From Akkermansiaceae bacterium (GTDB lineage: Bacteria; Verrucomicrobiota; Verrucomicrobiia; Verrucomicrobiales; Akkermansiaceae): a stretch of DNA of 64,000 bases. Below are positions 13,643-55,990 of the stretch, piece by piece. Location of the stretch: assembly GCA_947462535.1 (NCBI GenBank), contig CANHPN010000008.1:4514-68513 (forward strand), written 5' to 3'. The notes beneath the pieces were generated by a model that was given only the letters and a program-made list of their open reading frames with translations, had not been told where the DNA came from and did not search any database. How positions within the stretch are numbered: the stretch's first letter is position 1; each line of letters begins with the position of its first letter. The position numbers and the translations under genes were made by a program.

Positions 13643-13670
13643 CGTGGCGGCGGTTTCCAACCGCCATGCC
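13643..13670 (+). repeat. REP-like hairpin (GTGG-CGGCGG-TTTCCAA-CCGCC)
   Basis: 28 bp identical to the reverse complement of 49040-49067; partial inverted copy at 14404-14423. Confidence 0.8.
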
Positions 13671-25206: not shown

Positions 25207-25215
25207 TCTATCAAG

Positions 25216-28655: not shown

Positions 28656-28688
28656 TTTCAGTTTTCAGCTTTTCAGTATTTCAGCTTT
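28656..28688 (+). repeat. TTTCAG(C/T)N tandem repeat, about 4 units
   Basis: Seen directly. Confidence 0.8.
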
Positions 28689-28695
28689 TACCCCA

Positions 28696-29057: not shown

Positions 29058-29065
29058 ACCCACTA

Positions 29066-34111: not shown

Positions 34112-34184
34112 GGCGGTTTTTGGGAGAATCGGACGACTTCGCTTATAGTCCCGATTCCGCCGGGTGTCGAGTCCGCAAGATTAC

Positions 34185-34357
34185 CCGGACATCGCGCACA
34201 TGTGCCCATGCATCGCGCACGGGCACCCGAACATCGCGTAACGGGGGTCCGTACATGGGGAACAGGCACCCGTTCCACGCGTAACGGGGGTTCGAACATC
34301 GCGTAACGGGGGTCCGGACATCGCGTAACGGGGTGCCTGACATCGCGCACAGGCAGT
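34185..34357 (+). repeat. Array of 8 degenerate 21/22-bp tandem repeats (consensus ccgNACATCGCGtAaCgGGggt)
   Basis: Units start at 34185, 34206, 34227, 34249, 34270, 34292, 34314, 34336. Confidence 0.85.
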
Positions 34358-34497: not shown

Positions 34498-34533
34498 GTG
34501 GCGGCGATCACCGGTCGCCGCGAAATCCCGTCC
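34498..34533 (+). repeat. REP-like hairpin, left direct repeat of the TA module
   Basis: GTGG-CGGCGA-TCACCGG-TCGCCG-cgaaatcccgtcc; 34502-34533 identical to 35885-35916. Confidence 0.85.
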
Positions 34534-34647
34534 TCGTCATCCCGCTCGTTCCCATCGCCCACCGCCACCCCGAAGCCATCCACCCCGAAGAAGCCAGTGC
34601 GGCACGGGTGCTGCGGGAATGGGTGAAAAACCAAGGCGGGGTGAAAA

Positions 34648-35127
34648 TCAGTCGTTGGCTGGCAAGTTGCGAAGCACCGTAATCAAGGATTTTTGGTTTA
34701 CCCTCAGCTCGAAGCCGGTGACATCGCCTTTCTGACTGGTTTCACCAAGTTTCACTTGGGTGCCAGGTGGCAGGCGGTGAAGCTGAAACAGCTGTTCCCA
34801 GACCCCTGCAACCGCGTTCTTCTGGGTGACAAAACCTTTGCTGATGATCCCTGAAGTGAAGACGATGTGAGTGATACCCCATTCGCGACAAATCAGCGGC
34901 AGCTTTTCCTGAGCTGAATTCTTCCCAGCGTCTTTGGTGATAACGATCCACGAGGGATCCTGTCGAAGTGCTTCGAGCCACTGGCTGTCGGGCGTCCCGG
35001 CGGTCCAATCGTCCATCAGATGGCGGATTTGCAAAGCCGGATAGTCGCGCTGGTAAAAGTCACGGAGTTCACGGGGCAGCCGCGGGCTGCAACATTCATC
35101 GAAGAGCAGCTTGAGCCCGGCGCTCAT
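34648..35127 (-). CDS. PIN-like toxin (VapC45/PIN_10-like)
   Basis: LLFDECC, TPDSQWL, IVITKD; ATG overlaps the antitoxin stop (ATGA). Confidence 0.75.
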   Translation of the reverse strand: MSAGLKLLFDECCSPRLPRELRDFYQRDYPALQIRHLMDDWTAGTPDSQWLEALRQDPSWIVITKDAGKNSAQEKLPLICREWGITHIVFTSGIISKGFVTQKNAVAGVWEQLFQLHRLPPGTQVKLGETSQKGDVTGFELRVNQKSLITVLRNLPAND

Positions 35128-35819
35128 GCGGCATTGCCGATTTCCTGATTCCAGTAGCGATAGGCGGCCTCCACGGCGGCCTCCGGCACCTCGTAAAGCT
35201 CGGCGGCCTTCTCGATGCTGCCTTCCGTGACCGCAGCCCGCCACAGGGTTTCCGCGGAATAGCCGGAGCCGGCGACACTCGGTGCCCCAAAGCGGACTTT
35301 CGGATTCAACACAATTTCCTGATCGCCGAAGGTAAAGGCCCGATAGAGCACCGCCAGGCCGTCGGCGTCATAATCGAGATCCTTCATGTAGGCCTCGATG
35401 CATGGCTTCATGGACTTCTGCCCAAGATCGGGGCCCGTGAGGCCGACCGGGTTTTCGGCATCCTCCTTGAGAAAGATGTGGAGATCCTTGCCGATGAGCA
35501 CCGTGCGGTGATCTTGGCGGGCGAAGGGATGCTCGATCCGGTAGTGATCGCGGGCATTGCGGATCGCTTCTTTGATTTTCGGCAGGGGCACCCCGTAATC
35601 CGCCCGCAGGGACCGGATCGCCAGAGCTTCCACAAAGTCCGTGAAGCTGATGCGCTTGGCTCCGTCATCCGTGATGCCACTTCGGCTCATCGGTTCGGTC
35701 TGATTCGTGCCGAAAAACCAGCGGCTCAGGGTCGCAGGCGGCATCCGGGCATAACGCGCCGCCTCTGCGACGCTATAAACGCCGAGTCCTTGGGTAGCAG
35801 CTTGGAATGTGGTGACCAT
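35124..35819 (-). CDS. Antitoxin with HTH + DUF433 (VapB45-like)
   Basis: YSVAEAARYARMP.ATLSRW, SFTDFVE, LNPKVRFGAP.V.G, AAELYEV....VEAA. Confidence 0.8.
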   Translation of the reverse strand: MVTTFQAATQGLGVYSVAEAARYARMPPATLSRWFFGTNQTEPMSRSGITDDGAKRISFTDFVEALAIRSLRADYGVPLPKIKEAIRNARDHYRIEHPFARQDHRTVLIGKDLHIFLKEDAENPVGLTGPDLGQKSMKPCIEAYMKDLDYDADGLAVLYRAFTFGDQEIVLNPKVRFGAPSVAGSGYSAETLWRAAVTEGSIEKAAELYEVPEAAVEAAYRYWNQEIGNAA

Positions 35820-35880
35820 TGGAAGAAGTTGTCGGAAACTAGCCTCGAAGCGCGACGCCGCCAAGCGCCAAGTGTCTCCC

Positions 35881-35916
35881 GTAACGGCGATCACCGGTCG
35901 CCGCGAAATCCCGTCC
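35881..35916 (+). repeat. REP-like hairpin, right direct repeat of the TA module
   Basis: GTAA-CGGCGA-TCACCGG-TCGCCG-cgaaatcccgtcc. Confidence 0.85.
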
Positions 35917-35968
35917 AGTCCTCTTCGCCCCGCCCGGCACCACCACCACTTTCGCGGCGACCCGAAAA

Positions 35969-36017
35969 GTGGCTGCCGGGTCTCGCGGCAGACCGTTGCC
36001 GAGGCGTCTCGCCTCGT
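35969..36017 (+). repeat. REP-like doublet (loops GGTCTCG and CGTCTCG)
   Basis: GTGG-CTGCCG-GGTCTCG-CGGCAG then GTTG-CCGAGG-CGTCTCG-CCTCG; homologous to 39922-39971. Confidence 0.75.
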
Positions 36018-36069
36018 GCCTTCTGGCCCAGCGCATTTCCGCCAAACATGAGGCGCGCTGTTTTCCTCT

Positions 36070-36453
36070 TCAGCGCCCGCCGCGCTTCTTCTCCGCCAGA
36101 ATCCCCTCCGCTCTCTGCAGAATCGCCGCCCGGCAGAACTCCGTCAGGCTCTCCGCCTTCACCAAGCGGCTGGCACGGTCCGCCTTGTCGAATTCCTCCG
36201 CCGTCCGGAAAATCAGGTTCCACGGCGGTGCCTCGGGCTGCACCTCGCGCTGCCGCGCCGTCTCCAAGGTGATCACCCGCTCGATGTCGTCCATGAACTC
36301 CTTCGTCCGCTTGCCCTTCGGCTGGAGGTATTGACGAATCGTGTGCTCGCTCATCTTGAGCTGCACGGCAAGCCACTTCCGATCCTTCCCGATCGCCGCA
36401 AGTCGCCGCCGAATCTCCTGATGCTCGCTCACAATTTGAGCATACCGATACAT
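36070..36453 (-). CDS. Small XRE-like HTH regulator
   Basis: IRRRLAAIGKDRKWLAVQLKMSEHTIRQYL; divergent from the helicase. Confidence 0.6.
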   Translation of the reverse strand: MYRYAQIVSEHQEIRRRLAAIGKDRKWLAVQLKMSEHTIRQYLQPKGKRTKEFMDDIERVITLETARQREVQPEAPPWNLIFRTAEEFDKADRASRLVKAESLTEFCRAAILQRAEGILAEKKRGGR

Positions 36454-36621
36454 CCGTGTTTCGGGAGCTTTCAGGAAGAACCCGCTAATTCAAATCGTGT
36501 TTCAATGCCGTCATTCATTGGATTCAAAGATCTAAAATCAATCGCGCGCGTCATATGGCTTGCGAAATGTCGCTAGTTTTTGTCTTTATCCGCTACAGCA
36601 ACCCGCCTCCGAAACTCGGAT

Positions 36622-39600
36622 TTGACCCTCCTCGACAACATCACCAGCCTGCTCGGCGACGATCTGAAACGCACCGTCACCCCCGGCGCGAAGCTCAAGA
36701 TCGCCGCCTCGTGCTTTTCCATCTACGCCTACGAGGCGCTGAAGAAGGAGCTGGAGCAGATCGATTCCCTCGAATTCATCTTCACCTCGCCCACGTTCGT
36801 CCCGAACGACGTTTCCGACAAACTCCGCAAGGAGCATCGCGAGTTCCACATCCCTAAAATGGAGCGCGAGCGCAGCCTCTACGGCAGCGAATTCGAAGTC
36901 CGCCTGCGCAACGAGCTGACCCAAAAGGCCATCGCCAAGGAATGCGCCGAGTGGATGCGGAAAAAAGCCACCTTCCGCTCCAACAGAGGCCGCGCCCCGA
37001 TGCAGCAGTTTGCCTGCGCCAAAGGACTGGAAAACGAGAGCATTTACATGCCCCTTCACGGTTTCACCGCCGTGGACCTCGGTTACGAAAAGGGCAACGC
37101 TGTCTCCAACTTCGTCAACAAGTTCGACGAGCAGCCGATGACCGGCACCTGGCTCTCCCTCTTCGACCAGATCTGGAACGACCCCGATAAGCTCGAAGAC
37201 GTCACCGACCGTCTCTGCGACCACATCGCCTCGGTTTATCAGGAGAACTCGCCGCAGCGCATCTATTTCCTGATGCTCTACAACATTTTCAGCGAGTTTC
37301 TGGAGGACATTTCCGAAGACGTCCTGCCCAACGACCTCACCGGCTATCAGGACAGCCTGATCTGGCAGAAGCTCTTCAACTTCCAGCGCGATGCCGCCAC
37401 CGGCATCATCAACAAGCTGGAAACCTACAACGGCTGCATCCTCGCCGACAGCGTGGGCCTCGGCAAAACCTTCACCGCCCTCGCTGTCGTCAAATACTAC
37501 GAGTTGCGCAACCGCTCGGTCCTCGTCCTCTGCCCGAAAAAACTCGCGGACAACTGGCTGAACTACAACCGCAACTACGTCACCAACCTCTTCGCCAAGG
37601 ACCGCTTCAACTACGACGTCCTCTGCCACACCGACCTCCTCCGCACCCGCGGCGAGTCGCTCGGCACTGACCTTCGGAAGGTGAACTGGGGAAACTACGA
37701 CCTCGTCGTCATCGATGAATCCCACAACTTCCGCAACAACAACCCCGGCGAGGAGGAGCGCGAATCGCGCTACGCCCGGCTGATGAACAAGGTGGTGAGG
37801 GCCGGTGTGAAAACGAAGGTCCTCATGCTTTCCGCCACCCCGGTGAACAACCGCTTCACCGACCTCCGCAACCAGCTCGCCCTCGCCTACGAAGGCGAGC
37901 CGGACCAACTCCAATCGAAGCTCCGTTCGGAAAAGAACATCGACGAAATCTTCCGCCGCGCCCAGACCGCCTTCAACGCGTGGTCCACCCTGCCACCCGA
38001 GGAGCGCACGGCCACCGCCATTCTCAACGCGCTCGACTTCGATTTCTTCGAGCTGTTGGACAGCGTCACCATCGCCCGCTCGCGCCGCCACATCCAGACC
38101 TTCTACGACACCAAGGATATCGGCGAGTTCCCTGAACGCCTCAAGCCGCTCTCGTTCCACTGCCAGCTCACCCAGCGCGAGGATGTCATCGGCTTCAATG
38201 AAATTTTCAACCGCCTCAGGGCGCTGACCCTCGCCGTCTATGCGCCGCTCGCCTACGTCCATCCGAGCCGCCTGTCAAAATATCAGGACCTCTACGATCC
38301 CGATGGCGACGGACGCACCCGCAACCTCAGCCAGATCGGCCGCGAGGAAGGCATCCAGGCGTTGATGACCGTCAATCTCCTCAAGCGCCTCGAAAGCTCC
38401 GTGCATTCCTTCCGGCTCACGCTGGAGAGCCTCGAAGGAAACCATCAGCGCACCCTTGCGAAAATCGCCGTCTATCAGAAAACAGGCCGCGACGCCACTT
38501 TTGCCGATGTCGCCCCGGCCTTCGCCGAATACGAGCCGGAGGAGGACGATGAAATTCCCATCCCCGACAGCGAAACCATCGGCTCGAAAGTCCAGATCAG
38601 CCTTTCCGACATGGATCTCCCGCGCTGGAAACAGGAACTCGAAGCCGACCTAACGATCATCGGCAGCCTGCTCGATGAAATGCGGAAAGTCACACCGTCC
38701 GATGACGCGAAGCTCCAGCACCTGAAGACCACCGTCCTCAGCAAGCTCGCCTCGCCCATCAATCCGGGGAACAAGAAAGTCCTCATCTTCACCGCCTTCG
38801 CCGACACTGCGGATTACCTCTACGAGCACCTCGCGCCCTATTTCCTAGAAAACCAGAACCTGCACTCCGGCAAAGTCACCGGCTCTAACTCACCGAAATC
38901 CACCCTGCCGAAGAGCTACGATTTCCAATCCCTGCTCACGCTGTTCTCCCCGCGCTCCAAGGAAAAAGCCGCCATCCTGCCCCAGGAAACCGGCGAGATC
39001 GACATCCTCATCGGCACCGACTGCATTTCGGAAGGCCAGAACCTCCAGGACTGCGATTACCTGATCAATTACGACATCCACTGGAATCCGGTGAGGATCA
39101 TCCAGCGCTTCGGGCGGATCGACCGCATCGGCTCGCAGAACAAATTCATCCAGCTCGTCAACTACTGGCCGGACATCACGCTCGACGAATACATCAATCT
39201 CAAGGAGCGCGTCGAGGCCCGCATGATCATCGCCGACGTCACCGCCACCGGCGATGACAACCCGCTCGACTCGAAGTCCAACGATGTCTCCTACCGCCGC
39301 GAGCAACTTCGCCGGCTTCAGGATGAAGTCATCGATCTGGAGGATGTGAAAACCGGCATTTCCATCACCGATCTCGGCCTCAACGATTTCCGGATGGACC
39401 TTCTCAACCACGTGAAGGCCCATGGCGATCTATCGAATTTTCCCAACGGCATGCACGCCGTCGCTCCCGCCGCTCCCGAGCGCGGCCTCCCGCCCGGAGC
39501 CATCTTCGCCCTGCGGAACCGCAACGACGGCGTGAACATCAACCAGCAGAACCGTCTCCATCCCTACTACCTCGTTTACGTCGCGCAGGATGGACAAATC

Positions 39601-39903
39601 CTCGTCAACCACACCGAGCCCAAGCGCCTGCTGGATCTGGTTCGAGCCGCTTGCAAGGAGCGCGGCGAAGCGATTCCCGAAGCCTATCAGCCCTTCAACA
39701 AGGCGACGAAGGATGGCAGGAAAATGGAAACCTATTCCAATCTCCTCAACACCGCCATCCGCTCGATGATAGCGATCAAGGAGGGGAAGGACATCGACAG
39801 CCTCTTCACCGGGGGCCGCACCAGCGCCCTACTCAACACCATCACCGGCATCGAGGACTTCGAACTCATCGCCTTCCTCGTCGTCCAGGAGGTGACCTCA
39901 TGA
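36622..39903 (+). CDS. SNF2-family helicase with N-terminal PLD-like domain lacking an HKD motif
   Basis: ILADSVGLGKT, IDESHNFRN, LSATPVNN, EGQNLQDC, QRFGRIDRIG. TTG start at 36622 inferred (the ORF track starts at 36580). Confidence 0.88.
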   Translation: MTLLDNITSLLGDDLKRTVTPGAKLKIAASCFSIYAYEALKKELEQIDSLEFIFTSPTFVPNDVSDKLRKEHREFHIPKMERERSLYGSEFEVRLRNELTQKAIAKECAEWMRKKATFRSNRGRAPMQQFACAKGLENESIYMPLHGFTAVDLGYEKGNAVSNFVNKFDEQPMTGTWLSLFDQIWNDPDKLEDVTDRLCDHIASVYQENSPQRIYFLMLYNIFSEFLEDISEDVLPNDLTGYQDSLIWQKLFNFQRDAATGIINKLETYNGCILADSVGLGKTFTALAVVKYYELRNRSVLVLCPKKLADNWLNYNRNYVTNLFAKDRFNYDVLCHTDLLRTRGESLGTDLRKVNWGNYDLVVIDESHNFRNNNPGEEERESRYARLMNKVVRAGVKTKVLMLSATPVNNRFTDLRNQLALAYEGEPDQLQSKLRSEKNIDEIFRRAQTAFNAWSTLPPEERTATAILNALDFDFFELLDSVTIARSRRHIQTFYDTKDIGEFPERLKPLSFHCQLTQREDVIGFNEIFNRLRALTLAVYAPLAYVHPSRLSKYQDLYDPDGDGRTRNLSQIGREEGIQALMTVNLLKRLESSVHSFRLTLESLEGNHQRTLAKIAVYQKTGRDATFADVAPAFAEYEPEEDDEIPIPDSETIGSKVQISLSDMDLPRWKQELEADLTIIGSLLDEMRKVTPSDDAKLQHLKTTVLSKLASPINPGNKKVLIFTAFADTADYLYEHLAPYFLENQNLHSGKVTGSNSPKSTLPKSYDFQSLLTLFSPRSKEKAAILPQETGEIDILIGTDCISEGQNLQDCDYLINYDIHWNPVRIIQRFGRIDRIGSQNKFIQLVNYWPDITLDEYINLKERVEARMIIADVTATGDDNPLDSKSNDVSYRREQLRRLQDEVIDLEDVKTGISITDLGLNDFRMDLLNHVKAHGDLSNFPNGMHAVAPAAPERGLPPGAIFALRNRNDGVNINQQNRLHPYYLVYVAQDGQILVNHTEPKRLLDLVRAACKERGEAIPEAYQPFNKATKDGRKMETYSNLLNTAIRSMIAIKEGKDIDSLFTGGRTSALLNTITGIEDFELIAFLVVQEVTS

Positions 39904-39921
39904 GCGCTAGCAGCGCGAAAC

Positions 39922-40015
39922 GTGGCTGCGGCGTCTCGCCGCAGGCCGTGCTGGGAGCGTCTCGCTCCCAGTCTTCGGGCGTAAGCCCCAAGGAGCGGCG
40001 ATCTCCAAACCGCCG
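39922..40015 (+). repeat. Cluster of three REP-like hairpins
   Basis: GTGG-CTGCGG-CGTCTCG-CCGCAG; GTG-CTGGGAG-CGTCTCG-CTCCCAG; GGAG-CGGCG-ATCTCCAAAC-CGCCG. Confidence 0.75.
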
Positions 40016-40141
40016 AAGCCCATGGGTAGCCGATGAAAAGCGCTTTGCTCACCTCATCGTCACCTCATGGACCAAGGCGGATCGGAGTCCGCCTCTCCTT
40101 GATGTGTCATCACTCCAACATGCTACTGCCTAACACCACGC

Positions 40142-40957
40142 ATGTTTTTCTACCCTCCCCAGACCCTGTTCAACCGCGTGCTCCCCAAGAGCAAGATCTA
40201 CGCGCATGCCAAGCCGGGCCGGGCCGTAAAGGAGCTCTTCGTCTCCCGCATCGGCGAGATCGTCTGGAAACACAAACTTTCGCCGGAAACGCTCAAGCTT
40301 CCCGCCCGCCGCGGCATCACGGAAATCCAAGTCTTCGAGATCGCTCTGAAATCCGAAGAATGCGAGGCCGTCCTGCTTCGGACGATCGACAAGGCGATCC
40401 CGTTTCCCATCCTCTTCCAACTCACCCACGCCGACCGCATCCGCTTCGCCGCCTCTTTCAAGCGCCCCAGCGATGCCGATGCCAGCCAATGGGTGATCGA
40501 GGCCTCCTTCCTCTCTGAATGGTTTCATCATTCATCCTTCATACTTCATCCTTTGCCCGTCGCCCTCGATCTGGCAGCGCTCTACGACCAGCTCATCCGC
40601 CGCCACATATCGCTGGCATCGCGTCTCGGTGAATCCATCCGCGACCACGTCGCCCGCCATCTTTCCATCGAGGCGAAACAACGCGAAGCCCAACAACTGG
40701 AGAGCCGACTCGCCAAGGAAAAACAGTTCAACCGCAAGGTGGAATTGAACGCCCAGCTCCGCGCTCTCCGACAGCAGATCCTCGATCTGGATGGGGAGCG
40801 CACGCGCCCTCGCGTGCAGTCTCCGGCGCCCTCGCCGGAGACATGCGTCGATGAATCACCGGAGCTTTCCCCGCCATCCAGACCACCGTGCCGCGAGGGC
40901 GCGACCCGGAACACGCGAGGGCGCGTGTGCTCCCCAAATCAAGAATCCCACCCATGA
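40142..40957 (+). CDS. DUF4391 protein, C-terminally extended through a repeat element
   Basis: FNRVLPKSKIY, I.WKHKL, EIQVFEI, IDKAIPFPILF, EKQFNRKVELN. Confidence 0.82.
   Translation: MFFYPPQTLFNRVLPKSKIYAHAKPGRAVKELFVSRIGEIVWKHKLSPETLKLPARRGITEIQVFEIALKSEECEAVLLRTIDKAIPFPILFQLTHADRIRFAASFKRPSDADASQWVIEASFLSEWFHHSSFILHPLPVALDLAALYDQLIRRHISLASRLGESIRDHVARHLSIEAKQREAQQLESRLAKEKQFNRKVELNAQLRALRQQILDLDGERTRPRVQSPAPSPETCVDESPELSPPSRPPCREGATRNTRGRVCSPNQESHP
40793..40935. mobile_element. 143-bp MITE/REPIN-like element with 24-bp terminal inverted repeats
   Basis: ggggagcgcacgcgccctcgcgtg (40793-40816) versus cacgcgagggcgcgtgtgctcccc (40912-40935), 1 mismatch; internal hairpin gtctccggcg-ccct-cgccggagac. 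Confidence 0.8.
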
Positions 40958-42843: not shown

Positions 42844-42888
42844 ACGTTCCACCTTGCCAAGCGCCCACATTCCTGTATTTGTGGGTGT

Positions 42889-43128
42889 ATGAAAACAACC
42901 ATTGACCTGCCCGACGACGTGTTTTTGAAAGCCAAGATTCTCGCAGCCGAGCGCAGCATGACGTTTAAGGATGTTGTGGTCCAAGGTCTGAAACTCGTCA
43001 CCGAAACGCCTCCTGAAGCCGACCAGAAGAAACGAAAGGCGGCGCTCAAGAGTCTCCTCAAAGCCATGCAGGCGAGCAATACCGAACCGATGGTTCCTCT
43101 GAAACGGGAGGAGATTTATGACCGCTGA
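42889..43128 (+). CDS. Antitoxin (RHH-like)
   Basis: MKTTIDLPDD..; overlaps the PIN gene; upstream inverted repeat cccaca/tgtggg at 42864-42885. Confidence 0.8.
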   Translation: MKTTIDLPDDVFLKAKILAAERSMTFKDVVVQGLKLVTETPPEADQKKRKAALKSLLKAMQASNTEPMVPLKREEIYDR

Positions 43129-43531
43129 GGTGTTTTTGGATTCCAACGTGCTGCTCTATTCCTGTTCGGCGGCACCGGATGATGCCCGCAAACGTCAGGT
43201 GGCAGAGGATCTCATCCTGAACCGCCCGTTCGCGATCTCCGCCCAAGTGCTTCAGGAGTTCATCGCCAACGCGCTTCGCAAGCCACGACTCGGCATCACG
43301 GAATCCAACATCGACGCCACCCTCCAACTTGCGGCCATGGTGCGGGTGCAGCCGGTGACCCATGAGCTGGTCGTTTCCTCAGTAATGCTCCGCCGGCGTT
43401 TTCAGTTGTCGCAGTGGGATGCGACGATCATTGCCGCTGCGGCGGAACTCGGCTGCAAGACCGTTTATTCGGAGGACATGAATGACGGACAGGACTATGC
43501 GGGTGTCCGGGTGGTAAATCCCTTCAAGTAA
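43118..43531 (+). CDS. PIN-domain (VapC-like) toxin
   Basis: VFLDSNVLLY, SAQVLQEF, WDATIIAAA, YSEDM. Confidence 0.9.
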   Translation: MTAEVFLDSNVLLYSCSAAPDDARKRQVAEDLILNRPFAISAQVLQEFIANALRKPRLGITESNIDATLQLAAMVRVQPVTHELVVSSVMLRRRFQLSQWDATIIAAAAELGCKTVYSEDMNDGQDYAGVRVVNPFK

Positions 43532-43549
43532 CTGCGACGACCCGACCTC

Positions 43550-46500
43550 ATGAAACTCAAATTCAAGCACCAAGCCTATCAGGCGGACGCCGTAAAGGCG
43601 GTTGTGGATTGTTTCCAAGGCCAACCGAAATCCAGCGGCCTGAAATACGCCGTCGATCCGGGTGCGGCTCACCCCGCAGGTTTTGTCGCGCTGCCCGGCA
43701 CCGAGGTGGAAGGTTTCGCGAACGCGTCGCTCTCGATTTCCCCGGCGGCCATCCTCAAGAACCTCCAGGAGATCCAGCGCGAGCAGAAGATCCCCGTTTC
43801 TGAGAGTCTCAAGGTCACGGACGTTTCCAAGCTGAACTTCGACATCGAGATGGAGACCGGCACGGGCAAGACCTACTGCTACATCAAGACGATGTTCGAG
43901 CTGAACGCCAAATACGGCTGGAGCAAGTTCATCGTCGTGGTGCCAAGCATCGCCATCCGCGAAGGCGTCTCGAAATCCTTCGAGGTGATGGCCGAGCATT
44001 TCCTCGAACAATACGGCAAGCGCGCCCGCCCGTTCATCTACAACTCCAAGCAGCTCCACCAATTGGAAAGCTTTTCCTCGGACGCGGGGATCAACGTGAT
44101 GATCATCAACCAGCAGGCCTTCGCCACCCGTGGTGAGGATTCGCGCCGGATCTATCTGGAGCTCGATGATTTCCAGTCGCGCAAGCCGATCGATGTCATC
44201 CGCAAGAATCGCCCCATTCTGATTCTCGACGAGCCGCAGAAGTTGGAAGGCGCTGCCACGGTCACCAAGCTCAAGGAGTTCGATCCGCTGATGATCCTGC
44301 GCTACTCCGCCACGCACAAGACGGAGCACAACAAGGTCTATCGACTCGACGCGCTGGACGCCTACAACCAGAAGTTGGTGAAAAAGATCGCCGTGCGCGG
44401 CATCGCGGCGAGAGGACTCGCGGGCACCAATGCCTATGTTTACCTCGACTCGATTCGGATCTCGCCAAACAAACCGCCGGAAGCGGTGGTCGAGTTCGAG
44501 GTGATGCAGGGCACCGGCATCAAGCGGGTGCGGAAGATCCTCGGCAAGGGCGATGACTTGCACGCGCTTTCGGGAAACCTCGAACAATATCGCGACGGCT
44601 ACGTCGTTTCCGAGATCAACGCGAACGACGAGATCGTGATGTTCACCAACGGCCTCGTGCTGTGCGCACGGAAGGCGCTGGGTGACGTGAACGAATCCCT
44701 GCTGCGCCGCATCCAGATCCGCGAGGCGGTGAAGGCGCACTTCGAGAAGGAGCAGCGTTTGTTTTCCAAAGGCATCAAGGTGCTCAGCCTGTTCTTCATC
44801 GATGAGGTGGCGAAATACCGCCAATACACGCCGGACGGCCATGACCCCGGTGAGTATGCGAAGATTTTCGAAGAGGAATACGATCTGCGCCTCAACGAGG
44901 TGCTGACCATCGAGGACACGCCGTATAACAACTACCTCAAGGCGATCCGGACCTCGGTCACGCACGATGGCTATTTCTCGCAGGACAAGAAGACGAGGCG
45001 TTTCGTCGATTCCAAATCGGCTGCCAGAGGCGAGACCGCCGGCGAGGCGGACGATGTGGACGCCTACGATCTGATCCTGAAGGACAAGGAGACGCTGTTG
45101 TCGTTTCCCGGGCCGAACGATGACGATCGAACCCACCTGAAGAAGCAGGTGCGCTTCATCTTTTCCCACTCCGCCCTGCGCGAGGGATGGGACAATCCGA
45201 ACGTGTTTGTCATTTGCGCGCTAAAGCACAGCGACAACACGGTGACGCGCCGCCAGGAAGTGGGCCGCGGCATGCGGCTGGCAGTGGATTCCAACGGCGA
45301 GCGCGTCGATGATCCGGCCATCGTCCATCAGGTGAACGTGCTGACCGTGGTGGCGAGCGAGAGCTACAAGGACTTCGTTGCGGGGCTCCAGTCGGACATC
45401 AGCAAATCCATTTCCTCCCGCCCGCGTGAGGCCAATGCCGGATACTTCAATGGCAAGCTGCTCAAGACGGAAACGGGTGAGGTTGAGGTCACGGCAAAAC
45501 TCGCGAAGCAGATCGAATTCTATCTGATCGAGAACCGCTACGTGGATTTCGACCACCACATCACCACCGCCTATCACGAAGCGAAGGAGAAAGGCGAACT
45601 CGCAAAACTGCCGCCCGAGCTGGAACCACTCAAGGAACCGGTGTTTGCATTGATCGACAGCGTCTTCAGCGATGCCGACATCCCGCAGCCGGAAAATGAA
45701 TTCACGCTCAAGGAGAACCGGCTGAATGCGAACTTTGAAAAGAAGGAGTTCCAAGAGCTGTGGCACAAGATTAACCACAAGGCGGTCTATTCCGTGCACT
45801 TCGATTCCGAGGAACTCATCGCGAAGAGCATCAAGACCATCGACAAGGAGCTGAACATCGCGCCGCTGCAATATGTCGTCACCGCCGGTGAACAAAGGGA
45901 CGAGACGAGTTATGAAGAACTCCAGCAGGGTGAGGGATTCGTCTTGAGGGAGAACCGCACCGAGCAACTCGCGACTTCCGTGCTCTCGGTGGTGAAATAT
46001 GATCTCATCGGCAAGATCGCCGAAGCCACGGTGCTCACCCGGAGCACCGTTTCACGCATTCTATCCGGCATCAACGTCGCCGTCTTCGGCCAATACAAGC
46101 GAAACCCGGAGGATTTCATCCTGAAGGCCGGCAAGCTGATCAACGAACAGAAAGCGACGGTGATCGTCGAGCATCTGGAATACGACACCACCACCGGTGT
46201 CCACGAAACGCCCGATATCTTCACCCAGCGCAAGGAAGACCTCGGCAAGGGATTCAAGGCGGAGCATCACATTTATGATTACGTTTTCACCGATTCGACG
46301 ATCGAGCGGAACTTCGTCGGCGAGCTCGACGCCAGCGCGGAAGTGGTCGTTTACGCCAAGCTGCCAAAGACCTTTTTCATCCCCACGCCGGTCGGTAATT
46401 ACAACCCGGATTGGGCCATCGCCTTCAAACAGGACAAGGTGAAACACATCTACTTCATCGCCGAAACCAAGGGTGACATGTCGTCGATGCAGCTCCGCAA

Positions 46501-46615
46501 GATCGAGGCTTCCAAGATCGAATGCGCCCGCAAGTTCTTCGCGAAGATCACGAACGAGCAGGTCCGCTACGAGGTCGTGGACGGATACGGGAAGCTGATG
46601 GAGCTGGTGAAATGA
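43550..46615 (+). CDS. res: Type III restriction endonuclease (Res)
   Basis: EMETGTGKTY, ILDEPQ, LRYSATH, LREGWDNPNV, QEVGRGMRL, YNPDWAIAF...ETKG. Confidence 0.94.
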   Translation: MKLKFKHQAYQADAVKAVVDCFQGQPKSSGLKYAVDPGAAHPAGFVALPGTEVEGFANASLSISPAAILKNLQEIQREQKIPVSESLKVTDVSKLNFDIEMETGTGKTYCYIKTMFELNAKYGWSKFIVVVPSIAIREGVSKSFEVMAEHFLEQYGKRARPFIYNSKQLHQLESFSSDAGINVMIINQQAFATRGEDSRRIYLELDDFQSRKPIDVIRKNRPILILDEPQKLEGAATVTKLKEFDPLMILRYSATHKTEHNKVYRLDALDAYNQKLVKKIAVRGIAARGLAGTNAYVYLDSIRISPNKPPEAVVEFEVMQGTGIKRVRKILGKGDDLHALSGNLEQYRDGYVVSEINANDEIVMFTNGLVLCARKALGDVNESLLRRIQIREAVKAHFEKEQRLFSKGIKVLSLFFIDEVAKYRQYTPDGHDPGEYAKIFEEEYDLRLNEVLTIEDTPYNNYLKAIRTSVTHDGYFSQDKKTRRFVDSKSAARGETAGEADDVDAYDLILKDKETLLSFPGPNDDDRTHLKKQVRFIFSHSALREGWDNPNVFVICALKHSDNTVTRRQEVGRGMRLAVDSNGERVDDPAIVHQVNVLTVVASESYKDFVAGLQSDISKSISSRPREANAGYFNGKLLKTETGEVEVTAKLAKQIEFYLIENRYVDFDHHITTAYHEAKEKGELAKLPPELEPLKEPVFALIDSVFSDADIPQPENEFTLKENRLNANFEKKEFQELWHKINHKAVYSVHFDSEELIAKSIKTIDKELNIAPLQYVVTAGEQRDETSYEELQQGEGFVLRENRTEQLATSVLSVVKYDLIGKIAEATVLTRSTVSRILSGINVAVFGQYKRNPEDFILKAGKLINEQKATVIVEHLEYDTTTGVHETPDIFTQRKEDLGKGFKAEHHIYDYVFTDSTIERNFVGELDASAEVVVYAKLPKTFFIPTPVGNYNPDWAIAFKQDKVKHIYFIAETKGDMSSMQLRKIEASKIECARKFFAKITNEQVRYEVVDGYGKLMELVK

Positions 46616-46776
46616 ATTTCCTAACGAGCCAAACCATGCCCCTGCACCCCGCCGCGCAACAGATGATCCGGAAAGTCGAAGCGCTTTCCGGCAGGCCGGT
46701 GCATGTGGCGGAGGATGCGGGATTGCAGGTGATGCCTAAAGGGGCTAAATGGTCGGAAATTTTTCAAAATTGCTGA
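46612..46776 (+). pseudogene. Truncated 5' fragment of gene X (copy A), coupled to the res stop
   Basis: ATG 46612 overlaps res TGA; 46636-46734 is a 99-bp repeat of 48701-48799 with 7 mismatches. Confidence 0.75.
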
Positions 46777-46832
46777 AAATTCATCAAATTTAGCGTGATT
46801 TCATCGAATTAAGGGTAGAGAGTCCTTTTGCC

Positions 46833-48059
46833 ATGCTCCGCCAACTGACCCTTGAGAACTTCTGCTCCTTCCGCGAGCGCGGCGATCTGACGCTCACCAC
46901 TGGAGCCAAGACGCCGACCGACGATTCCTTCGTGGAGTCGCGCTGCGGAGACAAGATCACGGTGTTATGTGGTGTCTTCGGCGCGAATGCCTCGGGCAAG
47001 ACCAACTTGCTCAAGGCGCTGGCGTTCCTGAATTTTTTCATCCGGCACTCCTACCGCAACCTCAAGCCGGACGCGCCGATCCCGGTGGATCCGTTCATCG
47101 ATGGCGATGGCAAGCCGGTGAAACTCTCCGTCGAATTTGAAGGGCAGGGGCGGCTCTACCGCTACGAGCTGACGCTCACCGCTGCCGCCGTGGTCGAGGA
47201 ACGCCTCCAACAACGCTCGGATGACACCCGTTCCTTCCGCACGCTCTTGCTGAGAAAAGCCGGGAAACGCGGCCCGCTGCTGTCCCAACCGGAGGATTTC
47301 ACCGATCTCGATGCTCTCCGCGCCTTGCTGAAGGACCGCCCGAACGCTTCGGTGCTCTCCGCCGGGCTGGTCACTGGGCGGCCGGAATTCAACAAGGTTC
47401 TCGCCTCCTTCGGCCGCTTCGAGACGAATGTGGATCGTTTCGGCAAGGCGGAGATCGTACAGGGAAACCGCGCTTCCGAGGTCATCGATTGCGCCCGCTA
47501 TTTTCAGGAAAACCCGCATTTCAAGGACGATGTCGAGGATCGCCTGAAGCGCGCCGATCTGGGAATCGACGCGTTCTTTATCCGGGATGTGGAGGTGCCG
47601 GATGCGGAAACCGGGAAGATGCACACGGTTCCCATCCCCTTCGTCGCGCACCAGTCGGGCAAGCGGCGCTTCGAGCTGCCGCTCACGCATGAGTCGTCGG
47701 GAACGAAGCGTTTGTTCGTGCTGTTGGGAGCGTTTCTCCCGGTCCTCACGGAAGGTGGCATGGCGGTGATCGATGAAATGGAGTCCGACCTCCACCCGCA
47801 TCTCATTCCGCTGCTGCTGGACCTGTTTGTGGATGCGGCGACGAATCCCAAGCGTGCCCAACTCCTCTTCACCTGCCACCACGTCGAGATCCTCAACCAG
47901 CTCTCCAAAGAACAAATCGTCCTGGTGCAGAAGGATGCCGACTGCGTGAGCAGCCTGCGCCGCCTCGTGGATCTCAAAGGCGTGAAGCGGGAGGAAAACT
48001 TCTTCGCCAACTACAACGCCGGCCGCTACGAGGCGGTGCCATCCCCGTCGCTTTTCTGA
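46833..48059 (+). CDS. AAA/ABC-type ATPase (AAA_21; RloA/AbiLi-like)
   Basis: LENFCSF, FGANASGKTNLL, ESSGTKRL, IDEMESDLHP, QLLFTCH. Confidence 0.88.
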   Translation: MLRQLTLENFCSFRERGDLTLTTGAKTPTDDSFVESRCGDKITVLCGVFGANASGKTNLLKALAFLNFFIRHSYRNLKPDAPIPVDPFIDGDGKPVKLSVEFEGQGRLYRYELTLTAAAVVEERLQQRSDDTRSFRTLLLRKAGKRGPLLSQPEDFTDLDALRALLKDRPNASVLSAGLVTGRPEFNKVLASFGRFETNVDRFGKAEIVQGNRASEVIDCARYFQENPHFKDDVEDRLKRADLGIDAFFIRDVEVPDAETGKMHTVPIPFVAHQSGKRRFELPLTHESSGTKRLFVLLGAFLPVLTEGGMAVIDEMESDLHPHLIPLLLDLFVDAATNPKRAQLLFTCHHVEILNQLSKEQIVLVQKDADCVSSLRRLVDLKGVKREENFFANYNAGRYEAVPSPSLF

Positions 48060-48061
48060 AC

Positions 48062-48583
48062 ATGGCGCGGCGCGAAAGCATCATCCTGTTTGGAGAGGGC
48101 AAGACGGAGGCCGTTTTTCTCCAGCATTTGCACACGCTCTACCGGGATGGGATCGCCGCCCGCGTGAAGGTGGATGCCGGCCAGGGAGGCTCGCCCAAAC
48201 AAGTGGCGGAGCGCCTCATCAAAAAGCACCTCAATCTCGGAGCCTACGACCGCAGCCTGCTCTTGATCGACAGTGATCTGCCGCTGGATGAAATCCCGGC
48301 AAGCTTGCTAGTGAAGCATCGCATCACGCTGGTCACTTCCATCCCCTGCTTGGAGGGAGTTTTCCTGAGTCTCCTGGACGACCGACCACCTGCGAAAGAG
48401 CGCCATCAGTCCCGAAACTGGAAACGACGCTTTCAAAAGAATCATCTGGGAACGGACCGGAACGCGGAAATCGTTTCCAAACTCCGCGGCAAGTGCCCGT
48501 CTTTGTTTCCCAAGCAACTCGTCGAATCGACTCGATCCTCGCAACCAACCCTGCACAACATCCTTGAGTTCCTTGGGCTTTGA
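48062..48583 (+). CDS. RloB-like protein
   Basis: ILFGEGKTEAVFL, LLIDSD, SIPCLE (Toprim-like RloB pattern); 2 bp after the ATPase. Confidence 0.75.
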   Translation: MARRESIILFGEGKTEAVFLQHLHTLYRDGIAARVKVDAGQGGSPKQVAERLIKKHLNLGAYDRSLLLIDSDLPLDEIPASLLVKHRITLVTSIPCLEGVFLSLLDDRPPAKERHQSRNWKRRFQKNHLGTDRNAEIVSKLRGKCPSLFPKQLVESTRSSQPTLHNILEFLGL

Positions 48584-48700
48584 TGTTCTCCCTATTTCAT
48601 AAACTTTCGAATTGCGTGGGAAAGCTAATTAAAAAAGTCCTCTAAACTCCCGTCACGCCCGCTGTCGCGTGATGACCAAGCGACCAACAAAACCATTTTC

Positions 48701-48994
48701 ATGCCCCTGCACCCCGCCGCCCAGCAGATGATCCGGAAAGTCGAAGCGCTTTCCGGCAGGCCCGTGCATGTGGCGGAGGATGCGGATTTGAAAGTGATGG
48801 CGGCGATCACCACCGCCCGGGGCAGCGCTCCGGCGCATTTCCTGCGCTACCGGCCGGGGACGCGGGCGGTGGATTATCTGGTCGCCTATCAGCTTGGGTT
48901 TCTGGTGCGCTTGTTTTCCTGTCCGGCAGAGAATCGCTGGGATGTGGTGTCGAGCGCCGCCGAGCAGGCGCACGCGATGTTCGGGGAGGGGTAG
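48701..48994 (+). pseudogene. Gene X copy B (97 aa), probably truncated at the adjacent REP pair
   Basis: MPLHPAAQQMIRKVEALSGRPVHV...ARGSAPAHFLRY...YQLGFLVRLF; stop falls 1 bp before the REP at 48996. Confidence 0.65.
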
Positions 48995-48995
48995 G

Positions 48996-49067
48996 CGTGG
49001 CGGCGGTTTTCAACCGCCAGGCCGGATGAGGAATTCTTGGGCATGGCGGTTGGAAACCGCCGCCACG
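48996..49067. repeat. REPIN-like inverted REP pair with 24-bp spacer
   Basis: cgtggcggcggttttcaaccgcca (48996-49019) and tggcggttggaaaccgccgccacg (49044-49067). Confidence 0.85.
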
Positions 49068-49189: not shown

Positions 49190-49264
49190 TGGTGCACGCT
49201 GCAGGGTTCGAACCTGCGACCCCATCCGTGTGAAGGATGTGCTCTACCACTGAGCTAAGCATGC
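49190..49264 (-). tRNA. tRNA-Val(CAC)
   Basis: Reverse complement GCATGCTTAGCTCAGTGGTAGAGCA-CATCC-TTCACAC-GGATG-GGGTCGCAGGTTCGAACCCTGCAGCGTGCACCA. Confidence 0.95.
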
Positions 49265-55610: not shown

Positions 55611-55634
55611 ACCAAAGAATGTGTCCCGACGGTC

Positions 55635-55990
55635 TCAGTCGGGAGATTTTCTAGCCGGCCGCTTCACCCCAACCATCCCGCCTAGCAGTAAACAGAGCAG
55701 GATGGCAAGCGAGGCGGACCCGCCGCCGCTGCGCTTCAGGTCGGGCGTGATGGACATCGGCCGCTGGCCATCCACCTGCACGCTGCGGCCGAAGGTGAGC
55801 ACGGTGCCGCGCTGCGGCAGCATCACCTGCCGAAGCGCCGGCGAGCAGCGTGCCGAGCTCCAGTTTCGCCACGGCGTAGCCGAGAAACTTGCGTCCGTTG
55901 GAATTGTCCACCGCCACGAGCCCTTCGGCTTTCTCCACGAGCAGCTCGACACCGGATTCGGTGGTTATGAAGACACGGACGGGGGGATTT
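55635..55990 (-). pseudogene. Frameshifted C-terminal remnant of a larger membrane-anchored protein
   Basis: One frame reads VRVFITTESGVELLVEKAEGLVAVDNSNGRKFLGYAVAKLELGTLLAGAS; the next reads QVMLPQRGTVLTFGRSVQVDG...SLAILLCLLLGGMVG. No start codon. Confidence 0.45.

What the first reader, a model, noticed from the sequence alone, without database searches (positions are those of the whole stretch)
34498..49067. Defence modules are bracketed by matched pairs of REP-like hairpins: a possible hairpin-delimited cassette system
Seen: the PIN/DUF433 TA pair lies between 32-bp perfect direct repeats (34502-34533 = 35885-35916). The HTH+SNF2 block lies between two homologous hairpin doublets in the same orientation (35969-36017 and 39922-39971). 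DUF4391 lies between a hairpin at 39992-40015 and a TIR element at 40793. The island ends in a REP pair (48996-49067). Most of these share one architecture despite different sequences: GTGG/GTAA/GTTG, a 5-7 bp stem and usually a 7-nt loop, with compensatory stem changes (CTGCCG/CGGCAG versus CTGCGG/CCGCAG; CGGCGA/TCGCCG). Known: GTAG/GTGG plus hairpin is the substrate of HUH REP-associated tyrosine transposases (RAYT). Inference: these hairpins may act like integron attC sites, as ssDNA recombination boundaries that let defence cassettes be gained and lost without an integrase in cis.
Basis: partly seen in the sequence, partly recalled or inferred. Interest (0 to 1): 0.72.

Follow-up and report, generated by a model that had tools for sequence, protein, structure and literature searches.

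The report
REP repeats littering a defence island
The hairpins are ordinary genome-wide REP and MITE repeats that have accumulated between the genes of a defence-gene hot spot in a freshwater Verrucomicrobiota genome. Only one toxin-antitoxin pair is gained or lost at such a repeat, so this is not an integron-like cassette system.

Summary
The named repeats are real, but they are not cassette boundaries. They belong to at least three GTRG-tagged REP families plus a 142-bp MITE. I call the REP families REP_A, REP_B and REP_C.

- **They occur genome-wide.** REP_B occurs about 14 times per genome equivalent. In related MAGs it sits mostly beside or inside housekeeping genes such as purL, uvrA and a DEAD-box helicase gene. 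REP_A also follows bamA in this window.
- **The island is a variable slot.** It lies between cbpA and tRNA-Val/dnaG, and four haplotypes from related strains were recovered.
- **The large cargo swap does not break at hairpins.** It breaks at the start of a small HTH-like gene and at the ATG of a small conserved gene.
- **Some hairpins stay put.** The REP_C doublet at 35969 and the REP_A pair persist in strains that carry different cargo.
- **SNF2–DUF4391–Mod–Res is one operon.** It is conserved elsewhere, and the hairpins inside it are passengers. A relative carries a different MITE in every junction of the same operon.
- **There is one exception.** The PIN_10/DUF433 toxin-antitoxin pair is present or absent exactly at REP_B. 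It is 98.8% identical between lineages whose flanks are 92.8% identical. Recombination between REP_B copies explains this best.

No RAYT gene could be tested. Interest is modest.

The parts
34183..34355 (+). Array of about 8 tandem 21-22-nt units upstream of cbpA. It forms the left edge of the variable region and its copy number differs between haplotypes.
   Evidence: (family D2). A similar array lies upstream of SNF2 in L133.
34498..34533 (+). REP_B copy 1: GTGG, then hairpin CGGCGA-TCACCGG-TCGCCG, then CGAAATCCCGTCC.
   Evidence: It is present as a single copy at the same place in haplotype H2.
34534..34575 (+). Diverged 'tail' after REP_B copy 1. It is homologous to the tail after the single REP_B of H2. 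The duplication that flanks the TA pair therefore spans about 75 nt, of which only the first 32 are identical.
   Evidence: Alignment A1.
34648..35127 (-). PIN_10-domain toxin gene (159 aa).
   Evidence: Pfam PF18478, E = 4.6e-10. The exact protein is found on L092-L095 and L130.
35124..35819 (-). Putative antitoxin (231 aa) with weak HTH_66 and DUF433 matches. Its stop overlaps the toxin start as ATGA.
35881..35916 (+). REP_B copy 2, tagged GTAA. It travels with the TA module in both haplotypes H1 and H3.
35969..36017 (+). REP_C doublet 1: two hairpins with GTCTC loops. It is conserved in H2, which lacks SNF2. Only its first hairpin is present in H3.
36070..36453 (-). Small HTH-like ORF (127 aa) with no family match. 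It is conserved next to different cargo in H1, H2, H4 and L140.
36622..39903 (+). SNF2-family helicase, 1093 aa from the start used in L130.
   Evidence: Homology to L133 and an X2 loose end both begin at 36622.
39922..39971 (+). REP_C doublet 2, inside the SNF2|DUF4391 junction of the operon.
   Evidence: The same junction is 58 nt with two hairpins in L140 and holds a different MITE in L133.
40075..40094 (+). Further hairpin in the same junction (fold z -2.4). The one at 39996-40015 is not better than chance.
40142..40957 (+). DUF4391 gene. The domain ends near 40790 and the reading frame runs on into the MITE. Typical homologues are 217-220 aa.
40793..40935 (.). MITE-like element with 24-bp terminal inverted repeats. 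It is multicopy in the metagenomes and no target-site duplication is visible.
   Evidence: (loose ends at 40793, 40843 and 40935).
40954..42843 (+). Type III methyltransferase (Mod). Its central part, 41629-42432, is not homologous to that of related systems.
42889..43531 (+). VapB-like (42889-43128) and PIN VapC (43118-43531) pair lodged between mod and res, with no REP hairpins beside it.
   Evidence: The pair lies after res in L133.
43550..46615 (+). Type III restriction subunit (Res).
46635..46734 (+). Remnant of a small gene (nt -1 to +99), the left copy of a 100-nt direct repeat that is 93% identical.
   Evidence: The same remnant follows Res in L133.
46833..48583 (+). AbiLi-like ATPase (46833-48059) and AbiLii/RloB-like gene (48062-48583).
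48701..48994 (+). Small conserved gene (97 aa). In this window its 3' end is fused to the last codons of the next gene by a deletion of about 540 bp relative to L005. It marks the right edge of the variable cargo.
48997..49066 (.). REP_A inverted pair (REPIN-like): 48997-49018 on the + strand and 49045-49066 on the - strand.
   Evidence: It is present at the same place in L005 and L007 and absent in L004.
49190..49264 (-). tRNA-Val(CAC), the right flank of the slot, followed by dnaG.
13644..13665 (+). REP_A copy outside the island, 2 nt after the bamA stop codon.
14401..14422 (-). REP_A copy outside the island, with 2 mismatches.
   Evidence: (family D12).
55620..55644 (+). REP_C-like single hairpin (GTG, TCCCGAC, GGTCTCA, GTCGGGA) just after the glnD-like gene, outside the island.

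Best explanation
The hairpins are members of several families of small non-autonomous repeats native to this freshwater Verrucomicrobiota lineage. There are three GTRG-tagged REP families (REP_A, REP_B, REP_C) and a MITE.

The repeats spread through the genome. They survive wherever an insertion does little harm, which means short gaps after stop codons, between the genes of dispensable operons, and occasionally in frame inside genes. The region between cbpA and tRNA-Val/dnaG is a hot spot where defence cargo turns over, so it offers many such gaps and has collected many repeats. The repeats therefore sit at gene junctions because that is where they can sit, not because they define cassettes.

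Cargo in this slot is exchanged mainly by recombination in or next to two conserved framework genes: the small HTH-like gene on the left and a small gene of about 97-99 aa on the right. This step is inferred from the positions of the breakpoints.

The one real link between a hairpin and a gain or loss is the PIN_10/DUF433 toxin-antitoxin module. It carries its own REP_B copy and lies between REP_B direct repeats. It most likely entered, or can leave, by recombination between REP_B copies acting as short portable homology. This step is also inferred. Whether it uses RecA-type recombination, a replication slip or a dedicated enzyme is not known.
For: **The families are multicopy and occur in housekeeping contexts**
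- REP_A has 4 copies in the window, 2 of them beside bamA and the next gene.
- The 24-nt REP_B core occurs in 15 stretches from about 10 related MAGs.
  - These sit after a DEAD-box helicase gene, ThuA, an EF-like GTPase and a deacetylase, and before DAHP synthase and a Y-family polymerase.
  - They also sit in frame inside purL in 3 MAGs and inside uvrA.
  - Inverted REPIN-like pairs occur in L101, L104 and L109, and a REP_B+REP_A cluster in L110.
- Summed depth over the REP_B core is 135 against 9.4 for single-copy DNA in the source run, so about 14 copies. REP_A reaches 588 against about 8 in run X4.
- GTAG/GTGG-tagged REPs, coexisting families and intragenic copies in repair genes are already described, including in Verrucomicrobia (PMC3733652).

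**Breakpoints**
- H2 (L004, L005, L007) shares flanks at 94-95% identity. It keeps REP_B, the REP_C doublet, the HTH gene, the small gene and (in L005 and L007) the REP_A pair. It carries an SLFN-type helicase instead of the 12-kb cargo.
- Homology with H2 ends at the HTH start and resumes 1 nt before the small gene's ATG.
- H4 (L111-L118) has neither REP_B nor REP_C between cbpA and the HTH gene.

**The operon is one unit**
- HTH, SNF2, DUF4391, Mod, VapBC and Res recur in the same order in L140, which is another species and another genomic context.
- SNF2, DUF4391, Mod and Res recur in the same order in L133-L139, where a different MITE occupies every junction.

**The TA module**
- H1 has a duplicated REP_B where H2 has a single copy.
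- The module is 98.8% identical between H1 and H3, while cbpA on the same contigs is 92.8% identical.
Against: - Family members are enriched 6- to 10-fold per intergenic base in the island (p = 0.0015 to 0.009). A boundary role would also predict this.
- Two junctions coincide with a hairpin to within a few bases. One is the TA insert at REP_B. The other is the point where H3 departs from H2, directly after the first REP_C hairpin plus ACC.
- REP_B is identical in all 32 nt across haplotypes whose flanks differ by 5-17%. This suggests constraint or conversion.
- Only four haplotypes were available. No complete genome was available, so copy numbers come from depth and from fragmented MAGs.
- No RAYT gene could be looked for genome-wide.
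Confidence: 0.7

Rival explanations
1. The REP hairpins are single-strand recombination sites, comparable to integron attC sites. A HUH/RAYT enzyme encoded elsewhere acts on them to excise and insert defence cassettes.
For: - The TA module is flanked by direct REP_B copies, is absent exactly there in H2, and is nearly identical in two diverged lineages.
- In H3 it sits at a different REP-adjacent position, right after the first REP_C hairpin.
- The REP elements carry the GTRG tag typical of RAYT substrates.
- REP family members are enriched in the island.
Against: - Three of the four proposed cassettes fail.
  - The 35969 doublet and the REP_A pair stay in place while the cargo changes.
  - The 39922 doublet and the MITE lie inside an operon with fixed gene order.
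  - The VapBC and AbiL modules have no REP at their junctions.
- Most REP_B copies sit at housekeeping genes.
- The TA duplication extends about 40 nt beyond the hairpin in diverged form. This fits homology-driven exchange better than a precise cut next to a hairpin.
- No integrase or HUH gene lies in the island, and none was found in 1.33 Mb of held DNA, although that test was weak.
Confidence: 0.12
2. The hairpins are functional RNA elements of the operons. They would be intercistronic stem-loops that stabilise or terminate transcripts, kept by selection rather than being selfish repeats.
For: - The REP_C hairpins have an invariant GTCTC loop with very different, mostly complementary stems. 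93% of cells are paired, against 56% in shuffles.
- All copies in the window lie on the sense strand of the adjacent genes.
- The SNF2|DUF4391 junction carries GTCTC-type hairpins in both the window and L140.
- REPs are reported to act as RNA elements (PMC3733652).
Against: - The pair counts are circular, because the copies were collected by requiring a stem around GTCTC.
- L133 has a different MITE at that junction instead.
- The orthologous copies in L004 carry uncompensated stem mismatches.
- There is no Rfam match.
- This reading does not explain REP_A or REP_B beside unrelated genes, or the copies inside coding sequences.
Confidence: 0.15
3. The matched hairpins are chance similarities in GC-rich DNA, or artefacts of metagenome assembly.
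For: - The total number of hairpins with stems of 6 bp or more is close to the shuffle expectation, 28 against 24.5.
- One named hairpin (39992-40015) is no better than chance.
Against: - The exact 32-mer occurs twice.
- The same elements occur on independent assemblies from other samples.
- Depth profiles peak sharply on the cores.
Confidence: 0.02

Closest known systems
REP / REPIN elements of the GTAG-tagged superfamily (Di Nocera et al. 2013, PMC3733652; Bertels and Rainey 2011, PMC3116915)
   Same: - A 20-35-nt GC-rich hairpin preceded by GTAG or GTGG.
- Many dispersed copies, mostly just after stop codons.
- Inverted pairs and mixed clusters.
- Several families in one genome.
- Occasional in-frame copies inside repair genes.
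- The GTGG variant of the tag is already reported for Opitutus terrae.
   Different: - These particular sequences and this freshwater lineage are not in that survey.
- The cognate RAYT gene was not found or tested here.
- The REP_C family keeps its loop (GTCTC) and varies its stems more than is usual.
Integron gene cassettes with attC sites
   Same: - Short imperfect palindromes at the ends of small promoterless or self-contained modules.
- One module (the TA pair) is present or absent at such a site.
   Different: - There is no intI, attI or Pc.
- The hairpins are 20-30-nt REPs without the R''-L''/L'-R' organisation.
- They occur at housekeeping genes and inside a fixed operon.
- Most cargo differences between strains do not break at them.
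Minimal mobile elements and defence hot spots between conserved core genes (Neisseria MMEs, Saunders and Snyder 2007; recalled from my own knowledge)
   Same: - A fixed chromosomal slot, here cbpA / HTH gene ... small gene / tRNA-Val-dnaG, holds different cargo in different strains.
- The breakpoints lie in or next to conserved flanking genes.
- No integrase is present.
   Different: - Natural transformation is not known for this lineage.
- The framework genes themselves are more diverged (about 82%) than the outer flanks (94%).
REP-mediated chromosomal rearrangement (join points of duplications at REP sequences in Salmonella, Shyamala et al. 1990; recalled from my own knowledge)
   Same: Dispersed REP copies serve as short homologies, which leaves a segment flanked by direct REP repeats. 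This matches the TA module.
   Different: Here the segment is a horizontally shared TA module rather than a tandem duplication of resident genes.
MITEs
   Same: - The unit at 40793-40935 is 142 bp with 24-bp terminal inverted repeats.
- It has no ORF of its own.
- It is multicopy in the metagenomes.
   Different: - No target-site duplication is visible.
- No parent IS element was identified.

Membership tests
REP/REPIN (GTAG-tagged) | A short GC-rich palindrome with a 5' GTAG-type tetranucleotide that is not part of the stem. | tested here: met
   - REP_B copies are preceded by GTGG or GTAG in 15 of the 18 different sequence contexts aligned. The exceptions are GTAA beside the TA module, ATAG in L097 and GCGG in L109.
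- REP_A copies carry GTGG.
- Both first hairpins of the REP_C doublets carry GTGG.
REP/REPIN (GTAG-tagged) | Many dispersed copies per genome, mainly extragenic and close to the 3' ends of genes. | tested here: met
   - Depth indicates about 14 copies of REP_B and about 70 of REP_A.
- 15 exact REP_B cores occur in related MAGs, most of them 0-7 nt after a stop codon.
REP/REPIN (GTAG-tagged) | Inverted pairs of REPs (REPINs). | tested here: met
   - REP_A pair at 48997/49045, fold z -10.7.
- REP_B inverted pairs in L101, L104 and L109.
REP/REPIN (GTAG-tagged) | A cognate single-copy RAYT (Y1_Tnp) gene flanked by the same REPs. | tested here: inconclusive
   No RAYT-like ORF was found in the window or in 1.33 Mb of fetched loci. 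The test was phmmer with one E. coli sequence recalled from memory. The rest of the genome was not available.
Integron cassette array | An intI tyrosine recombinase with an adjacent attI site and Pc promoter. | tested here: not met
   All island ORFs were annotated and none is an integrase. No repeat of the tRNA 3' end was found.
Integron cassette array | Every cassette ends in an attC site, and strains differ by whole cassettes bounded by attC. | tested here: not met
   - Only the TA pair behaves this way.
- The VapBC pair, the AbiL pair and the 12-kb cargo swap break elsewhere.
- Hairpins lie inside a fixed operon.
MITE | Terminal inverted repeats, small size, no transposase gene, multiple copies. 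| tested here: met
   The terminal inverted repeats are 24 bp with 1 mismatch. Loose ends at both edges in runs X1 and X3 show other copies.
MITE | Target-site duplication. | tested here: not met
   The flanks are ...CTGGATG on the left and AAATCAA... on the right, with no duplication.
Defence hot spot / minimal mobile element | The same conserved flanking genes with unrelated cargo in related strains. | tested here: met
   - H1 carries SNF2-DUF4391-type III RM-VapBC-AbiL.
- H2 carries an SLFN-type helicase.
- H4 carries a 971-aa SNF2.
- Flanks are 94-95% identical.
Type III restriction-modification with SNF2 and DUF4391 accessory genes | The order SNF2-DUF4391-Mod-Res is conserved in unrelated genomic contexts. 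| tested here: met
   L140 and L133-L139 show the same order. PADLOC matches: MTase_III E = 1.5e-215 and REase_III E = 0.

The most novel reading that the evidence does not exclude
REP_B is more than passive homology. A TA module that carries one REP_B copy would be excised as a circle and re-inserted at other REP_B copies, possibly by the lineage's RAYT acting in trans. REPs would then serve as portable attachment sites for at least small addiction or defence modules.
Probability: 0.12. Interest if true: 0.65.

Novelty: new member of a known kind. Interest (0 to 1): 0.3.

Why it matters
- **It removes an attractive false lead.** Regularly spaced hairpins between defence genes resemble a cassette system. 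Here they are the ordinary fallout of REP and MITE spread into a dispensable, fast-changing region.
- **It documents new sequence families.** These are three REP families and two MITE families in a poorly studied freshwater Verrucomicrobiota lineage.
- **It describes an integrase-free defence hot spot.** The slot next to tRNA-Val has conserved framework genes on both sides.
- **It gives one clean case of a REP-flanked module.** The toxin-antitoxin module is flanked by direct REP repeats and is shared almost unchanged between diverged strains. This offers a tractable test of whether REPs promote gene movement.

Tried and rejected
- **Classical tRNA-integrated island.** No integrase is present, and no repeat of 12 nt or more of the tRNA-Val sequence occurs elsewhere in the window. 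Rejected.
- **Scan of metagenome contigs with CbpA.** It returned nothing closer than 75% identity, so it was useless for mapping breakpoints.
- **Exact look-up of ribosomal protein L20.** The protein is too conserved, so the contexts were mixed, but the search did yield haplotype H2.
- **Exact look-up of the 231-aa antitoxin.** It found nothing because the gene was called with another start. The toxin look-up worked.
- **Contig ending at 34525 and the joints.**
  - These first looked like TA-less variants.
  - The X3 joint 34557->35946 turned out to be the H3 arrangement.
  - The X1 joint 34525->35989 is probably another genomic REP_B+REP_C cluster at the same depth.
- **REP_B-like stretch in the small gene.**
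  - A 14-nt match to REP_B (TGGCGGCGATCACC) lies right at the AbiL junction, around 48797.
  - This looked like a third hairpin-adjacent breakpoint, but it folds no better than shuffles (z -0.2). I do not count it.
- **Covariation count on REP_C.** The numbers are high but circular, because the copies were selected for having a stem.
- **Rfam.** Only the two tRNAs matched.
- **Metatranscriptome contigs from run X2.** They do not show whether transcripts cross the hairpins.
- **RAYT search.** It used a single sequence recalled from memory and found nothing. It is too weak to count as absence.

Full report
**What the region is.**
- The window comes from a GC-rich (about 61%) freshwater bacterium.
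  - Its CbpA homologues are named Luteolibacter or Verrucomicrobiota.
  - The MAGs that share its repeats are labelled Akkermansiaceae or Verrucomicrobiales.
  - The DNA is found in lake, river and estuary metagenomes.
- The finding lies in a 15-kb stretch between a cbpA/DnaJ-like gene (33164-34111, -) and tRNA-Val(CAC) (49190-49264, -), which is followed by dnaG.
- The genes in this stretch, in order:
  - a PIN_10 / DUF433-like toxin-antitoxin pair
  - a 127-aa HTH-like ORF on the minus strand
  - SNF2 helicase
  - DUF4391
  - type III Mod
  - a VapBC pair
  - type III Res
  - a 100-nt gene remnant
  - AbiLi and AbiLii
  - a small 97-aa gene
- There is no integrase, and no repeat of the tRNA 3' end.

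**Checking the observation.**
- Confirmed features:
  - The 32-nt direct repeat is exact.
  - The two doublets with GTCTC loops, the 142-bp element with 24-bp terminal inverted repeats, and the terminal inverted REP pair are all present and fold far better than shuffles.
- Weak points:
  - The hairpin at 39992-40015 does not fold better than shuffles.
  - Two further modules in the island contradict the pattern.
    - VapBC sits in gaps of 45 and 18 bp without REP hairpins.
    - AbiL is bracketed by a 100-nt repeat, 93% identical, of a gene's 5' end rather than by hairpins.
- Density:
  - Hairpins as such are no commoner in the window than in shuffled sequence.
  - Members of the repeat families are enriched in the island's intergenic DNA (p = 0.0015 to 0.009).

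**What the hairpins are.** I distinguish three REP families.
- **REP_A** (GTGGCGGCGGTTTYCAACCGCC)
  - It has four copies in the window. One lies 2 nt after the bamA stop codon and one lies at 14401, both outside the island.
- **REP_B**
  - Its generic core is GTRG + CGGCGATCACCGGTCGCCGCGAAA.
  - An exact-match scan of one genome per species found 15 stretches in about 10 related MAGs. Flanks are conserved only up to ...CGCGAAA.
  - Neighbours are mostly housekeeping genes:
    - a DEAD-box helicase gene, at the same place in three MAGs
    - purL, with the REP lying in frame inside the gene in three MAGs
    - uvrA, also intragenic
    - an EF-like GTPase, DAHP synthase, a Y-family polymerase and a deacetylase
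  - Inverted pairs and a REP_B+REP_B+REP_A cluster occur.
  - In the source run the summed depth over the REP_B core is 135 against 9.4 for unique DNA. In another lake REP_A reaches 588 against about 8.
- **REP_C**
  - These are hairpins with a constant GTCTC loop and very varied stems.
  - They are found after recQ in L004, after an Mrp antiporter gene in L111, after the glnD-like gene in the window, and elsewhere.
- All of this matches the published picture of GTAG-type REPs. That picture includes GTGG tags in a verrucomicrobium, coexisting families, and intragenic copies in repair genes (PMC3733652).

**Do strain differences break at the hairpins?** Exact-protein look-ups recovered four haplotypes of the slot.

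| Haplotype | Loci | Structure |
|---|---|---|
| H1 | window, L130 | as listed above |
| H2 | L004, L005, L007, L008, L010, L108 (flanks 94-95% identical) | cbpA, tandem array, one REP_B, REP_C doublet, HTH gene, SLFN-type helicase, small gene, a 160/180-aa gene, REP_A pair (L005 and L007 only), tRNA-Val, dnaG |
| H3 | L092 | cbpA, REP_B, first REP_C hairpin, then the TA module with its own GTAA-tagged REP_B, then unrelated sequence |
| H4 | L111-L118 | only 142 nt between cbpA and the HTH gene, with neither REP_B nor REP_C, then a different 971-aa SNF2 |

From these comparisons:
1. The 12-kb cargo difference between H1 and H2 breaks at the start of the HTH gene and 1 nt before the ATG of the small gene. 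Neither point has a hairpin.
2. The REP_C doublet at 35969 and the REP_A pair are kept while the cargo changes, so they are not cassette ends.
3. REP elements are themselves insertion/deletion polymorphisms, as shown by H4 and by L004 against L005.
4. The TA pair is the exception. H2 has a single REP_B exactly where H1 has two copies flanking the pair.

**The operon argument.**
- DUF4391 homologues are normally 217-220 aa.
- In L140, which is another species and another chromosomal context, the order is:
  - HTH on the minus strand, then SNF2
  - a 58-nt gap with two hairpins
  - DUF4391
  - a 30-nt gap
  - Mod, VapBC, Res
- In L133-L139 the order is SNF2-DUF4391-Mod-Res, followed by the small-gene remnant and then VapBC.
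  - A different MITE (TTGGACTGCGGCAGCCTGCTGCCGCTTT...) sits upstream of SNF2 and in each of the three junctions.
- The gene order never changes, while the junction fillers differ between lineages. The 39922 doublet and the 40793 MITE are therefore passengers inside one transcription unit.
- VapBC did move. In L133 it drags about 30 nt of a mod 3' end with it and joins directly to the small-gene remnant. That is an illegitimate join in coding DNA, not at a hairpin.

**The TA module.**
- The duplication that flanks it is 32 identical nt plus about 40 nt of diverged tail, including a 16-nt indel.
- Both REP_B copies at this locus share 8 extra bases (TCCCGTCC) that generic copies lack.
- The module (34562-35916) is 98.8% identical between H1 and H3, whereas cbpA on the same two contigs is 92.8% identical. 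It has therefore been exchanged recently between lineages.
- In H3 its left end carries a degenerate REP_B remnant, and it lies one hairpin further right.
- The simplest reading is recombination between REP_B-plus-tail sequences, one on the incoming DNA and one in the chromosome. This leaves direct repeats.
- A site-specific, hairpin-dependent reaction is not excluded, but nothing here requires it.

**Comparison with known systems, and verdict.**
- As sequence elements these are new members of the known GTAG/GTGG REP superfamily and of MITEs. One defining feature, the cognate RAYT gene, could not be tested (one search is only a weak negative).
- They fail the tests for integron cassettes: no intI or attI, no cassette-by-cassette variation, and copies at housekeeping genes.
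- The slot itself behaves like an integrase-free hot spot, or 'minimal mobile element', with conserved framework genes.
- I put 0.7 on the passenger-repeat explanation with REP_B-mediated recombination for the TA pair. I put about 0.12 on a true hairpin-dependent cassette mechanism.
- Interest is modest (0.3). The pattern is real but ordinary. The TA/REP_B case is the only part worth an experiment.

Noticed in passing
window 34183-34355; L133 188-328: An array of about 8 tandem 21-22-nt units (consensus about CATCGCGTAACGGGGGTCCGGA) lies upstream of cbpA. H4 has two units, one X2 contig lacks one unit, and a similar array lies upstream of SNF2 in L133. It could be an operator or iteron array, or the left edge of the variable slot.
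   Followed up: partly
window 46635-46734 and 48700-48799: A 100-nt direct repeat (93/100 identical) equals nt -1 to +99 of the small 97-aa gene and brackets the AbiLi/AbiLii pair. The same remnant, ending at the same position, follows Res in L133. The type III unit therefore carries this remnant as its right end.
   Followed up: yes
window 42889-43531; L133 10575-11217; L140 12719-13446: A VapBC pair is lodged between mod and res of the type III system in the window and in L140. In L133 it lies after res, where it carries about 30 nt of a mod 3' end.
   Followed up: partly
window 41629-42432: The central part of Mod, presumably the target-recognition domain, has no nucleotide homology to L133 or L138, while both ends are 82-92% identical. 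X2 contigs break at 42433. The source-run contigs leave a gap at 41142-41331 where depth is doubled. This suggests swapping of the specificity domain.
   Followed up: no
L133 1-115, 395-560, 4183-4350, 5000-5170, 7190-7340: A second MITE family of about 165 bp, with terminal inverted repeats TTGGACTGCGGCAGCCTGCTGCCGCTTT / AAAGCGGCAGCAGGCTGCCGCAGTCCAAG, fills every intergenic junction of the SNF2-DUF4391-Mod-Res operon in a related strain. It extends the SNF2 and DUF4391 reading frames.
   Followed up: partly
L098 4806, L102 6138, L105 4946; L099 638: REP_B copies lie inside long open reading frames. They are at the same position of purL (FGAM synthase) in three MAGs, and inside uvrA in a fourth.
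   Followed up: partly
window 13644-14422: Two REP_A copies in inverted orientation flank a 205-aa ORF (13779-14396) that has only a weak nucleotidyltransferase match (NTP_transf_5, E = 2e-4). The ORF lies between bamA and the next gene, and a strong terminator hairpin lies at 13680-13709.
   Followed up: partly
L120-L126, about 160 nt upstream of cbpA: In a related species (CbpA 92% identical), an IS91-family transposase gene (Zn_Tnp_IS91), a rolling-circle HUH type, lies directly next to cbpA where the island sits in the window.
   Followed up: no
window 25175-25210, 28663-28698, 29023-29058: Short tandem runs of the 8-nt unit TTTCAGYR occur in three intergenic gaps of the microcompartment (BMC) gene cluster at 23.7-30.5 kb.
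   Followed up: no
window 62123-62208 and 60841-61788: An AT-rich 11-nt repeat array (ATCTGATTTTT / ATCAGATACTT) lies upstream of the gene at 62202. Three copies of a 36-nt motif (CCGCCGCTMTGCGACGGCTCGCACAAGA) lie downstream of tRNA-Ala.
   Followed up: no
window 48968-48994 vs L005 14457-14996: The 97-aa ORF of the window is a fusion. A deletion of about 540 bp relative to L005 and L007 joins the small gene to the last codons of the neighbouring 160-aa gene.
   Followed up: partly
L092 (reverse complement) about 900-1100: H3 carries an extra AT-rich insert between cbpA and the tandem array. The insert has inverted ends GACCACTGATTTCACTGATTTCAC ... GTGAAATCAGTGGTC, which makes it a third MITE-like element.
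   Followed up: no
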